Below, piece by piece: positions 21,001-24,000 of a stretch of 64,000 nt of DNA (its first letter is position 1; each line of letters starts with the position of its first letter). The position numbers were made by a program. This DNA is from Malacoraja senta (taxonomy: Eukaryota), in the NCBI GenBank assembly GCA_038087875.1, contig CM075987.1, forward strand, positions 14,632,001-14,696,000. Direction: 5' to 3'.

Positions 21001-24000
21001 ATCAGGTCCAGACGCTTTCCGAGATTCACCCTCATGGAAGGATCTTCTGACGTCAGCCTCGGTGACTGAGATTACATTGGGTGTTATGGGAGCACGAGAA
21101 GGCACATCAATGTTTTCCCTATCGAAGTGTGCATTGAATTCATTGAGCTTGTCCAGGAGCGATGGCACTTGGTTTTGCCTTGTAGGACATGATGGAATGC
21201 AGACCCAGCCACAGCTGCCAATCATCCGTATCCATTTAGAGCGAGTCATTTTAGCCTTTTATGATGACCTTGAGGTCGTATCTGGCCGTCTTGTTTGATC
21301 ACCAGACTTGAATGTCAGAGATCTGGTCCTCAGAAGATTGCCGGCCTCCTGGTTCATCCAAGACTTCTGGTTGGGGAATATTCAGACAGTTTTGGTGGAA
21401 CACGTCTCCGCGCATTTTGTTATGAAGTTGGTAACAACCATGGCATATTTGCTCATGTTTCCAAGTCCTTGAACATCACCCAGTCTACCAACTCCAAGCA
21501 ATCTGTCATTTTTCTTCCTCCCCTCAAAAGCTTTAGGCAGTCCTCACCGCTGAGGATGCACTTTTCAGTCACTGCCTGTACGCCGAGGGAAGCACAGCCA
21601 CATGGCCGGATTTCCCAAAGTGAGGGTGAGGAATGCAGCGATAGGTGTCTTTGATGGTGGAATAGCAGTGGTCGAGGATGTTTGATGCTCTGGTGCTGCT
21701 GGCAGTTTGGAAGTGACCTTTTCAAACTGGCATTGTTGAGGTTCCCAGCTATGATAAGGCGTCAGGGTATGCCATCTCGTGTGTGTTGACGACGGTGTGG
21801 AGCTCCTCTCCAGTGCTAGACGAATGTCTACCTGGGATGCGATGTGGACTGCGGTCATGACGATGGAGGTGAATTCCCTCGGGAGATAAAAGGAATGGCA
21901 CTTCACTGCCAGGTGTGGAGGGTAGGAGTTGGACAAGACCACTATGTCTGAGCCTCAGAGTTTACCATAAGGCAGACATCACCTCTTTCCTTTGCCGATG
22001 CCTCAGTTCATGTGATGAATGGAGAAACCTTTGGGCTGAGTATGGGGAGCTTAGATCAGCCATGTCTCAGTGAGACTGAGCGCACATCATTCCCTCATCT
22101 GTCATAAAGCAGCTTTGCCTTAAGTCCTCAACCTTATTTTCCAGTGACTGTACACTTGATTTGACTGGCTAGCAAAAGATTTGACTGGCTAGCAAAAGTA
22201 GCAAACAAAAGCTATTCACTGTATCTTGGGACACGTTACAATAATAAACCAATATTCTAACAGGCAGTGTAACGCTCATACACAATAATTTGAGAAATGT
22301 GCATCAAATAGAGCAATGCATCAATTGGAGGTTTGACTGGTTCCTACCCAATAGTATTTACCTAGGGTCGACACAAAATGCTGGAGTAACTCAGCGGGAC
22401 AGGTAGCATCTCTGGAGAGAAGGAATGGGTGATGTTTCGGGTCGAGACCTTCCTTTTTGCTGAACTCTTGTTGGAGAGAGAATTTCTTCAAAGTAGGGAT
22501 ACCTTGAGGAGATTTCGCAGTGGAGTGGACAAAATGTGTAGGAAAGAACTGCAGATGCTGGTTTAAATCAAAGGTAGACACAAAATGCTGGAGTAACTCA
22601 GCGGGACTGGCAGCACATCTGGAGAGAAGGAATGGGTGACATTTTGGGTCGAGACCCTTCTTCCTAGTATTACCTAGGAACTGGAGTGGAGCTTTATAGG
22701 AAAACAAATCAATCTTCAAAACTGTTGTTTGTGCAGGTATAAAATTATAGGTAACACAAGTGTAAATGAGAAAGAAATACGAATTATCTAGAATTCTTCC
22801 AATTGTTTAGGAGTCATATGGTGCAGCAGTCATGTATACAAAATATTCCAAGATTTTGTCCCTGCTCTGCATTTGAAACAACGCAAGAAGCCAAGAATTA
22901 GGGTTTTACACATCAGGATTATACAAGATGAAATATACCAAGATTAATTAACCAATTATTCTTGGAGAATTAATATCTGTAAACACTGATTGTAAGGACA
23001 AATTTAATCAGTACCCCCCATACTTATGTAGTCAGGTGACACTGACAAGGCTCTTGGCTGGTATGCACAAAGGCAAAAATAAAACCTGAAAATGGTCTTT
23101 CAGGAGAGAGAATTCTAGAATGATAAAATGGTCATATCTAGAAATGAACAGTAAAAGGTAGGGATAGGATCAAGGGCTCGAGTGATGATTTTTGAGTGTA
23201 ATTATTCAAATAATACTTTATATATTATTCCAGACATCAAATGGCATTTGGGGCAAGGCAGAAGATCACAACTGCATTATTAGGGCAATAATAGATTTCC
23301 TATATTCCACAGCTATTTGTAACCTGATACGCAAATAGTTAAATTTAAAACCGAGGTATTCACTGTAAATATTTGTAGTAGCTAAGAAATTTGCTGATTG
23401 GCAGTTTGCAATGTATACTGATCAGAAAACCTACGGACAGATTATTCTCCTCTTCAAAGATAAACCAAGTCAGCACTTTAAAAGTAGCACCAAAATAAAT
23501 ATAAATAACTAAGACAAGAAATATAAACAAGGCTATACACAGTGAAACAGCAAAAGACCACAAAGATATGGAGAGAGTAGCAAAGGATTGTCTTAGAACA
23601 ATTTATTTAAAAACCTAGGATTCGTACTCACTGATGTGACTTTTTATAAACTGTTAAACATTTCGCATATGTTCTAATGCAGTATTGTACAGAGTAACTA
23701 AATTTCGCATATGTTCTAATGCTGTATTGTACAGAGTAACTAAATCTTTTACATGGACATTGTTAGAACTGAAGAACTGCACATTAAATGTTTCTTAAAC
23801 AACTCGAGGACTGAGCCTAAATGGTCATTCTGATCACTGGAATACAAACATCTGGAAATACTGGCATTACACCAATAGGAACAGGCTGTTTTATTCGGCC
23901 AGTGGACAAGATGCTTTTTGGTCAAGACGGAAATTTGGAATAAAACAAAAAAACTGAAAATTAAATCAATAGCACAACTGCATTTTTTTTGTAATTATTA

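What the first reader, a model, noticed from the sequence alone, without database searches (positions are those of the whole stretch)
22352..22678. 207-nt partial tandem defines a retrozyme-like unit length
Seen: one TSD-bounded insertion holds about 1.4 copies of the unit with an exact 207-bp period, so the two hammerhead positions are 207 nt apart on the minus strand. Both cores are now mutated. It lies between the CDK9 3' end and the FPGS promoter, sense to any readthrough. Established: PLEs form partial tandems, and metazoan non-LTR retrozymes are short hammerhead tandems that yield circular RNAs. Inference: intact relatives could release a ~200-nt monomer that circularises.
Basis: partly seen in the sequence, partly recalled or inferred. 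Interest (0 to 1): 0.65.

Follow-up and report, generated by a model that had tools for sequence, protein, structure and literature searches.

The report
Decayed Penelope-type mini-retroelement, 1.4-unit tandem
This is one old, dead insertion of a short non-coding jumping element that carries a minimal hammerhead motif typical of Penelope-like retrotransposons; it shows the family's 207-bp unit but is otherwise an ordinary repeat.

Summary
A 90-nt direct repeat (89% identical, gapless) recurs with a spacing of exactly 207 bp. The 298-bp insertion (1.44 units) lies between 15/14-bp target-site duplications, downstream of CDK9 and upstream of the FPGS CpG island, both on the minus strand.

The element belongs to an abundant family: 21 HMM hits in 64 kb. 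On the minus strand here, the family's conserved module opens with a minimal hammerhead of the published Penelope-like-element (PLE) type. Its form is CUGAAGA, one extra A, a GGGU/ACCC stem with a tetraloop, GAA, a palindromic ACGU, then Y. Rfam finds no hammerhead even at E<=10.

Family copies show PLE-style insertion signatures:
- TSDs of 8-20 bp.
- Two fixed 3' ends about 35 nt apart (the "tail").
- Head-to-head inverted pairs inside a single TSD.
- Partial tandems.

Both motifs in the finding are dead, through CpG transitions, a destroyed CUGANGA box and a 5' truncation.

The "retrozyme-like" reading is partly supported. The kinship and unit length fit. The circular-RNA inference is untested, and 5' ends clustered at the motif's 5' edge argue against the simplest cleaved-monomer version of it. 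I classify this as a known kind, of low to moderate interest.

The parts
22352..22366 (.). Target-site duplication, left copy (15 nt)
   Evidence: Read; one search finds the ungapped 9-nt part
22665..22678 (.). Target-site duplication, right copy (14 nt, one T fewer)
22367..22664 (-). Whole insertion, 298 bp = 1.44 units of 207 bp; RNA sense inferred to be the minus strand
22638..22664 (-). Remnant of minimal hammerhead no. 1, at the 5' end of the insertion. C3 and U4 are absent, G12 is changed to A, and ACGU reads AUGU
22573..22637 (-). Rest of module 1, from the cut-site equivalent to the first 3'-end site; includes the most conserved block of the family (GCUGAGUU.CUCCAGC)
22536..22572 (-). 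'Tail': the stretch between the family's two alternative 3'-end sites
   Evidence: (ends 61-67 vs 97-103 nt past the cut) plus landmarks; borders are approximate to a few nt
22460..22535 (-). Linker of about 76 nt that completes the 207-bp unit. It is also present in the same order in copy 3516-3691, which is 69% identical
22431..22459 (-). Remnant of minimal hammerhead no. 2 (internal). The CUGAAGA box reads AAAAAGG, GAAA is kept, and ACGU reads ACAU
22367..22430 (-). Rest of module 2, ending at the first 3'-end site, 64 nt past the cut-site equivalent
42103..42198 (+). Family copy with an intact minimal hammerhead motif (96 nt, 13-bp TSD)
45730..45823 (-). Family copy with an intact minimal hammerhead motif (94 nt, 12-bp TSD with 1 mismatch)
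57413..57643 (.). Head-to-head inverted pair of family copies inside one 16-bp TSD; the right arm has an intact motif
36979..37184 (.). Second head-to-head inverted pair inside one TSD (20 nt, 4 mismatches)
3516..3691 (-). Divergent family copy holding part of the tail, the linker and one module. It independently confirms the order of parts within the unit
25285..25656 (-). Last coding exon of CDK9 (matches residues 252-373 of human CDK9 chains)
16001..18000 (.). CpG island (GC 0.50-0.69, CpG o/e 0.61-0.84), the likely FPGS promoter region
   Evidence: FolC-type exons downstream on the minus strand

Best explanation
The interval is one old insertion of a short, non-coding retroelement family that I infer is mobilised in trans by a Penelope-like element (PLE).

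The family's conserved module, read on the strand that is the window's minus strand here, has three fixed features:
- It begins within a few nt of a minimal hammerhead motif.
- It continues through a highly conserved block.
- It ends at one of two fixed points, 61-67 or 97-103 nt past the predicted cut.

I read these two points as the two internal start sites of reverse transcription known for PLEs. The roughly 35 nt between them would be the PLE 'tail'.

Most copies are single modules of about 95 or about 131 nt. The finding's copy is longer because cDNA synthesis started at the first site in a downstream unit of a multi-unit RNA. Synthesis then ran through a whole 207-nt unit (module, tail, 76-nt linker) to the usual 5' end in the upstream unit.

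Shown: the repeat, the TSDs, the motif, the end positions, the inverted pairs and the decay.
Inferred: the RNA sense, PLE-type target-primed reverse transcription, and a tandem (or possibly circular) source RNA.

The locus itself is inert, because both hammerhead motifs are broken. The breaks are mainly CpG transitions, as expected in a CpG-depleted genome (window CpG o/e 0.38).
For: Family size. nhmmer finds 21 hits at E<=0.01 in 64 kb.

Motif match.
- A strict descriptor for these features hits 3 sites in the window, all in the family, and 0 sites in 200 dinucleotide shuffles.
- 5 of 21 hits keep all three of CUGANGA, GAAA and ACGU.

Insertion signatures.
- TSDs were found for 9 of 13 insertion events, 8-20 bp long.
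- All 11 TSD-defined 3' ends fall at 61-67 nt (7 ends) or 97-103 nt (4 ends) past the cut, with none between. The script's anchor failed on two arms, F and I, so I counted those by hand from its printout. Arm I is 58 nt as found, or 67 nt if its 9-nt internal deletion is allowed for.
- All 11 5' ends lie from -8 to +10 of C3.
- Two inverted pairs are head-to-head. Their outer ends sit at those 3' sites and each pair has one TSD.

Fit to published PLE biology.
- The Anolis PLE cleaves and extends both DNA strands. It starts reverse transcription at two adjacent internal sites downstream of its hammerhead, and the interval between them is the 30-40 bp tail.
- PLEs form partial tandems and adjacent inverted copies.

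Unit order. The tail-linker-module order recurs in an independent copy that is 69% identical (3516-3691).
Against: - No PLE ORF is in the window. Among 140 of the 205 ORFs of >=70 aa scanned with Pfam, none matched RVT_1 or GIY-YIG. The link to an autonomous PLE is therefore not shown.
- Rfam gives no hammerhead hit at E<=10 for the locus or the whole window.
- Helix I has only 2 potential pairs in cis (my reading).
- Folds are no more stable than shuffles: z -0.18 for the unit and -0.08, -0.81 and +0.64 for three intact modules.
- RNAalifold supports only the 4-bp helix II and a 3-bp stem, with almost no covariation.
- The sharp 5' end at the motif's edge is not the graded 5' truncation described for PLEs, and I cannot explain it.
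- The sample is only 13 insertion events in one 64-kb window.
- The opposite orientation, with a fixed 3' end and truncated 5' ends, would also fit the single copies and the tandem.
Confidence: 0.72

Rival explanations
1. True non-LTR retrozyme. Genomic tandems of the 207-bp unit are transcribed and the hammerheads cut out 207-nt monomers. These are ligated into circles that serve as templates for rolling-circle reverse transcription, which gives more-than-unit copies like this one.
For: - The 207-bp unit lies within the 170-400 nt range of animal retrozymes.
- There is one hammerhead-type motif per unit and the insertion is longer than one unit.
- The unit order is conserved in two subfamilies that are 69% identical.
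- Non-LTR retrozymes are reported in one Chondrichthyes species and are derived from PLE pLTRs.
- Cervera & de la Pena 2014 proposed circular templates for PLE tandems.
Against: - TRF reports 12 arrays in the window and none belongs to this family.
- All 11 5' ends sit about 30 nt upstream of the predicted cut, not at it.
- Only 2 of 13 insertion events clearly contain linker sequence.
- Minimal hammerheads cleave poorly in vitro.
- In the Anolis PLE the hammerhead is dispensable for insertion, and no RNA-seq reads start or end at its cut site.
- The unit fold has z -0.18.
- The motif lacks the helix III loop and the loop-loop contacts of the retrozyme hammerheads shown to yield circles.
Confidence: 0.15
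2. An ordinary LINE-dependent SINE whose RNA sense is the window's plus strand at this locus. It would have a fixed 3' end (...CCCUUCUUCAGAC), 5'-truncated copies, and an antisense hammerhead-like motif that has no function.
For: - The end next to the CUGAAGA box is the constant border in nearly all copies.
- On this reading the finding is a classical 'truncated copy upstream of a full copy'.
- The plus strand has loose A-box-like and B-box-like strings. This is my reading and is weak.
Against: - The other ends are not graded. All 11 fall in two windows of 7 nt each. By my arithmetic, under uniform truncation over about 110 positions the probability is roughly 1e-10.
- The inverted pairs would be tail-to-tail with truncated outer ends. 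Priming on both target strands does not give that arrangement (inference).
- A motif meeting the strict PLE minimal-hammerhead descriptor occurs in 0 of 200 shuffles.
- ARAGORN finds no tRNA-like gene in the window, and Rfam gives no tRNA or SINE hit.
- There is no A-rich or short-repeat tail.
Confidence: 0.08
3. Local tandem duplication of part of a single inserted copy after insertion, through replication slippage or unequal exchange. On this view the 207-bp period says nothing about the element's unit.
For: Small perfect tandem duplications exist nearby (22158-22198 and 23660-23745).
Against: - The TSD brackets the whole 298 bp.
- The same tail-linker-module order is present in the independent, divergent copy 3516-3691.
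- The insertion's two ends coincide with the family's usual 5' end and first 3' site.
Confidence: 0.03
4. A MITE or other DNA transposon, in which the inverted pairs represent terminal inverted repeats.
For: Two loci are long inverted repeats that Rfam scores weakly as miRNA-like hairpins: 40.3 and 31.9 bits, both below the gathering scores.
Against: - Single copies have no terminal inverted repeats (for this locus).
- TSD length varies from 8 to 20 bp, whereas DNA transposon superfamilies have fixed lengths. This last point is my own knowledge.
- The direct partial tandem does not fit this model.
Confidence: 0.02

Closest known systems
Minimal hammerhead motifs (min-HHR) of metazoan Penelope-like elements (Cervera & de la Pena 2014, PMC4209133; parts 1-2 of 4 read)
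   Same: - CUGANGA and GAAA boxes.
[quoted passage not shown]
- A palindromic 15.2-16.2 with no helix III loop, which implies a dimeric mode of action.
- Mostly dispersed single motifs, sometimes dual motifs on opposite strands.
- Present in fishes, amphibians and reptiles; absent from mammals.
   Different: - Helix II here is 4 bp with a tetraloop; in Schistosoma it is 7-8 bp.
- Helix I has only 2 possible pairs in cis. The paper gives 4-5 bp as usual and 2 bp in D. virilis.
- No link to a PLE ORF could be shown in this window.
Poseidon PLE of Anolis carolinensis (PAc), insertion mechanism (Frangieh et al. 2024, PMC11167929; abstract and main text read)
   Same: - The hammerhead lies just upstream of the region where reverse transcription starts.
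- There are two adjacent start sites, and the interval between them equals the 30-40 bp tail.
- Both target strands are cut and extended, which fits the head-to-head pairs.
- The minimal active template begins near the hammerhead.
   Different: - PAc is autonomous, with an ORF that starts in stem II. The family here is non-coding.
- The main PAc start site is at 111-118 nt into the ORF, about 85-92 nt past the cut. Here the ends lie at 61-67 and 97-103 nt.
- Start sites here are inferred from genomic ends only.
Animal non-LTR retrozymes (Cervera & de la Pena 2020, PMC7229834, passages; Li, Clavereau & Pollet 2026 preprint 10.64898/2026.07.22.740005, abstract and sections 5, 12, 14)
   Same: - Short non-coding units of a few hundred bp with one type I hammerhead per unit.
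- TSDs larger than 4 bp and low GC content.
- Derived from PLE pLTRs.
- Reported in one Chondrichthyes species.
   Different: - The locus holds 1.44 units, not 2 or more complete units with complete motifs. It therefore fails the preprint's operational definition.
- The hammerhead is minimal, not canonical.
- Most family copies are sub-unit monomers.
- No RNA evidence is available.

Membership tests
Hammerhead ribozyme, PLE minimal type | Catalytic boxes CUGANGA and GAAA | tested here: met
   Met in the family: 8 of 21 nhmmer hits keep CUGANGA, 11 keep GAAA, and 5 keep both plus ACGU. Not met in the finding's own two copies.
Hammerhead ribozyme, PLE minimal type | [quoted passage not shown] | tested here: met
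   The consensus is CUGAAGA-A-GGGU...ACCC. RNAalifold keeps the 4-bp stem in 11-13 of 15 copies. The strict descriptor gives 3 hits against 0 in 200 shuffles.
Hammerhead ribozyme, PLE minimal type | Palindromic 15.2-16.2 (dimeric helix III) | tested here: met
   ACGU is kept in 6 of 21 hits. The others mostly show the CpG-transition products AUGU or ACAU.
Hammerhead ribozyme, PLE minimal type | Helix I of about 4-5 bp flanking the cut site | tested here: not met
   Only 2 pairs are possible between ...AGU and the A/G-C that follows the cut. The element border lies just upstream. The paper notes 2 bp in D. virilis.
Hammerhead ribozyme (Rfam families) | Covariance-model match | tested here: not met
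   No hammerhead hit at the gathering score or at E<=10. The Rfam models may well miss motifs that lack helix III; that is my inference.
Hammerhead ribozyme | Self-cleavage at the predicted site | not testable with these tools
   Needs in vitro transcription of dimeric constructs or RNA end mapping.
Non-LTR retrozyme | Tandem of at least two consecutive units, each with a complete hammerhead (definition) | tested here: not met
   The locus has 1.44 units with both motifs broken. The window has no array of this family among 12 TRF rows. The rest of the genome could not be searched.
Non-LTR retrozyme | Unit of about 170-400 nt, TSDs longer than 4 bp, non-coding | tested here: met
   207-bp unit and a 15/14-bp TSD. 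A 161-aa stop-to-stop frame spans the locus (22321-22806, minus strand) but has no Pfam match.
Non-LTR retrozyme | Expressed as circular RNA monomers | not testable with these tools
   No RNA data. Indirect evidence is mixed: the insertion is longer than one unit (for), but 5' ends are not at the cut site.
PLE-type insertion (non-autonomous) | Partial tandems and adjacent inverted copies within one TSD | tested here: met
   This locus and 3516-3691 are partial tandems. 36979-37184 and 57413-57643 are inverted pairs, each within one TSD. These features are as described.
PLE-type insertion (non-autonomous) | Optional 30-40 bp tail / two alternative 3' ends | tested here: met
   Seven ends lie at 61-67 nt and four at 97-103 nt past the cut, with none between. 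Compare.
PLE-type insertion (non-autonomous) | Sequence homology to the pLTR-ORF junction of an autonomous PLE (RT + GIY-YIG) in the same genome | not testable with these tools
   No PLE ORF was found in the window (140 of 205 ORFs scanned). No eukaryotic genome collection or repeat library is on hand.

The most novel reading that the evidence does not exclude
The family may be a 'mini-PLE' that has been stripped down to the hammerhead plus the entry site for reverse transcription. Its RNA 5' end would be fixed at the hammerhead's 5' edge, and its 207-nt tandem masters would, through dimeric minimal hammerheads, also release unit-length RNAs that circularise. That would link the PLE minimal hammerheads, so far of unknown role, to the retrozyme circular-RNA pathway in a cartilaginous-fish-like genome.
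Probability: 0.15. Interest if true: 0.5.

Novelty: new member of a known kind. Interest (0 to 1): 0.3.

Why it matters
For the locus itself, very little: it is a dead repeat in an intergenic spacer and should not affect CDK9 or FPGS.

For the family there is modest value to transposon specialists. Even one 64-kb window shows genomic ends that mirror the two internal reverse-transcription start sites and the double-strand priming that were established in vitro for a single lizard PLE. It also shows an unexplained sharp 5' end at the hammerhead's edge.

A genome-wide census could test in vivo what the minimal mobilisable PLE template is. It could also test whether minimal hammerheads ever process RNA.

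Tried and rejected
- Rfam at gathering thresholds and at E<=10 on the locus and the whole window: no hammerhead. The only weak hits in the family are miRNA-like scores on the two inverted pairs, below gathering, which I take as hairpin artefacts.
- ARAGORN: no tRNA, so a tRNA-derived SINE head gets no support.
- TRF: no array of the family.
- Full-text search of papers for two window motifs: 11 papers, all unrelated primer matches.
- Search for hammerhead + Penelope-like + shark: one review, where 'shark' refers only to the shape of the motif.
- Thermodynamic folds of the unit and of three intact modules: not distinguishable from shuffles.
- RNAalifold on 15 copies: only two short stems and no useful covariation. 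Copies decay neutrally, so this says little either way.
- Pfam on 140 of 205 ORFs: no PLE RT or GIY-YIG, only LINE and Tc1-like fragments.
- Helix I partners for the strand after the cut, sought in upstream element sequence in the two linker-bearing copies: none convincing.
- The plus-strand SINE reading was considered and set aside; see the rival explanations.
- Local pairwise alignment of copies to the finding ran into the flanks and was not used for end positions. I used TSDs instead.

Not done:
- Supplementary tables of the 2026 preprint and supplementary figures of the 2014 paper. They may already list this family or its species, but they are closed.
- The taxon was not pinned down beyond 'non-mammalian vertebrate'; the best named CDK9 matches are a shark and a caecilian, both at 93%.
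Full report
**1. What is there**

The plus strand holds a 90-nt direct repeat, 22366-22455 and 22573-22662. It is 89% identical, ungapped, with start-to-start spacing of 207. TRF does not list it because there are fewer than two copies.

The repeat-bearing block is bracketed by TAGTATTTACCTAGG (22352-22366) and TAGTATTACCTAGG (22665-22678) (the ungapped part was recovered). The interval is therefore a single insertion of 298 bp (22367-22664), or 1.44 units of 207 bp, between 15/14-bp target-site duplications.

**2. Context**

- Minus-strand ORFs at 26185-26508, 28510-28725 and 32154-32396 match the protein kinase domain.
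- The exon at 28510-28725 matches CDK9 chains at E 1.8e-28, against 1.5e-9 for CDK12.
- 25285-25656 matches CDK9 residues 252-373 and is the last coding exon.
- Minus-strand poly(A) signals follow at 24154, 23890, 23602 and 23003.
- FolC/FPGS-type exons lie on the minus strand at 10019-10381, 9493-9633 and 8733-8894.
- A CpG island spans about 16.0-18.0 kb.

The insertion is thus intergenic, at least about 325 bp past the last candidate CDK9 poly(A) signal and about 4.4 kb upstream of the island. Its hammerhead-bearing strand is the sense of CDK9 read-through.

I do not take the window for human. The last CDK9 exon is about 83% identical to human and primate CDK9. The best named vertebrate matches, both at 93%, are a shark and a caecilian CDK9. 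The 200-N run at 43215-43414 was left alone.

**3. It is a member of an abundant family**

- blastn with the interval gives 29 HSPs at about 14 further places.
- An HMM built from 15 copies gives 21 hits at E<=0.01 in the 64 kb.
- In the alignments, the strand that is minus at the finding opens with (A)GU-CUGAAGA-A-GGGU-tetraloop-ACCC-GAA-ACGU-Y.
- It continues through a block, GCUGAGUU.CUCCAGC, that is the most conserved part of the family.

**4. Is the motif a hammerhead?**

Rfam says no at every threshold tried. The motif nonetheless fits the published description of the minimal hammerheads of metazoan Penelope-like elements (PLEs). Cervera & de la Pena 2014 (parts 1-2 read) list four features that emerged beyond their search descriptor:
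- families rich in covariation;
- a conserved G10.1-C11.1 pair;
- palindromic 15.2-16.2 with no helix III loop, implying action as dimers.

The last three are met here.

A strict descriptor for them finds 3 sites in the window, all in this family, and none in 200 dinucleotide-preserving shuffles. A looser box-only pattern also hits 3 unrelated sites, so the boxes alone would be weak evidence. Of the 21 HMM hits, 8 keep CUGANGA, 11 keep GAAA, 6 keep ACGU and 5 keep all three.

Against:
- Helix I can form only 2 pairs in cis, because the element's border lies just upstream.
- Folding energies are ordinary.
- RNAalifold supports only the 4-bp helix II and one 3-bp stem.

I file the motif as 'works like, and most likely is, a PLE-type minimal hammerhead'. 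Catalysis is untested.

**5. Orientation and mechanism**

TSDs could be defined for 9 of 13 insertion events, with lengths of 8-20 bp.

Measured on the hammerhead strand, all 11 TSD-defined 3' ends fall in two narrow classes: 61-67 nt (7 ends) or 97-103 nt (4 ends) past the predicted cut, with none between. The script's anchor failed on two arms, so I counted those by hand from its printout. One of them is 58 nt as found, or 67 nt if its 9-nt deletion is allowed for. All 11 5' ends lie within -8 to +10 of C3.

Two loci (36979-37184 and 57413-57643) are head-to-head inverted pairs. Each has a single TSD and outer ends at those same two 3' sites.

This matches what Frangieh et al. 2024 showed in vitro for an Anolis PLE:
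- Both target strands are cut and extended.
- Reverse transcription starts at two adjacent internal sites downstream of the hammerhead.
- The interval between the sites is the 30-40 bp 'tail' seen in genomic copies.
- Templates truncated almost to the hammerhead still work.

It also matches the partial tandems and adjacent inverted copies described for PLEs generally. I therefore infer that the hammerhead strand is the RNA sense and that the family is mobilised by a PLE enzyme.

The opposite reading, a plus-sense SINE with a fixed 3' end, fits the single copies. It does not fit the bimodal far ends, the geometry of the pairs, or the strand of the motif.

**6. Reading the finding**

In RNA sense, the insertion runs as follows:
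- It starts at the family's usual 5' end, so C3 and U4 are missing.
- Module 1 runs to 22573.
- The tail is about 22572-22536.
- A linker of about 76 nt spans 22535-22460.
- A second motif occupies 22459-22431.
- Module 2 stops at the first 3' site, 64 nt past the cut.

The same tail-linker-module order is present in an independent copy that is 69% identical (3516-3691). The 207-bp unit is therefore a property of the element, not a local duplication.

The simplest account is a multi-unit RNA on which cDNA synthesis began in the second unit. Whether that RNA came from a genomic tandem or from a circle cannot be decided here.

**7. Decay**

Motif 1 reads AAAAUGUC where the family has GAAACGUC. 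Motif 2 has ACAU for ACGU, and its CUGAAGA box reads AAAAAGG.

The G12 and 15.2-16.2 changes are CpG transitions. The same changes recur in other copies, and the window is CpG-depleted (o/e 0.38). The locus cannot self-cleave.

**8. Retrozyme or not**

Non-LTR retrozymes are tandems of 170-400 nt units with canonical type I hammerheads that give circular RNAs. [quoted passage not shown]

The finding fails that definition, and the window has no such array. Three further points argue against cleaved or circular monomers as the usual template:
- The 5' ends sit at the motif's edge rather than at the cut.
- Linker-bearing copies are rare (2 of 13 events).
- In the Anolis PLE the hammerhead is dispensable for insertion.

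They do not exclude such templates for the linker-bearing lineage.

**9. Verdict**

This is a decayed copy of a known kind of element, a non-autonomous PLE-type repeat with a minimal hammerhead.

Whether this particular family is already catalogued could not be checked. No repeat library or source genome was available, and supplements are closed. What I recall of seeing this repeat in elasmobranch genomes comes from memory only and rests on no call.

Noticed in passing
window 36979-37184 and 57413-57643: The two head-to-head inverted pairs of the family form long hairpins. Rfam scores them weakly as miRNA precursors (MIR1507 at 40.3 bits against a gathering score of 73; mir-1296 at 31.9 bits against 100). 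These are probably structural look-alikes, but such pairs could feed small-RNA pathways.
   Followed up: partly
window 47180-47214 (+) and 47424-47493 (-): Two further decayed family copies face each other about 210 bp apart with their 3' ends inward. This differs from the head-to-head pairs, and no TSD analysis was done.
   Followed up: no
all TSD-defined family copies, e.g. window 42103, 45823, 47720, 60037: The 5' ends of the copies cluster within about 19 nt at the 5' edge of the hammerhead box instead of showing graded truncation. The conserved ...UCAGUC... just upstream resembles an initiator element and, in the linker-bearing copies, follows a pyrimidine-rich run ending in CAG. The cause is unexplained: it could be a transcription start, a splice-related end or a reverse-transcriptase stop.
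   Followed up: partly
window 22158-22198, also 22330-22340: A perfect 20-bp tandem duplication (2.0 copies) lies 150 bp from the insertion, with a partial third match next to the left TSD.
   Followed up: no
window 23660-23745: A 42-bp tandem duplication (2.0 copies, 97% identical) lies among the candidate CDK9 poly(A) signals.
   Followed up: no
window 29732-30025 (+), 30934-31236 (+), 51625-52350 (-): Other transposon debris is present: a match to the Pfam ALKBH8_N domain (E 5.9e-16), which I recall, from memory only, as often marking LINE reverse-transcriptase tails; a Tc1/mariner-like HTH; and a zf-RVT match.
   Followed up: no
window 1-123 and 35852-36007: GC-rich tandem repeats with periods of 57 and 58 nt (2.2 and 2.7 copies). 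The second lies in the GC-rich region where the CDK9 5' end is expected.
   Followed up: no
protein P0033 (Labeo rohita, 813 aa): A public fish protein model is named CDK9 by one source and folylpolyglutamate synthetase by another. This suggests that read-through or fused CDK9-FPGS gene models exist for this conserved gene pair.
   Followed up: no
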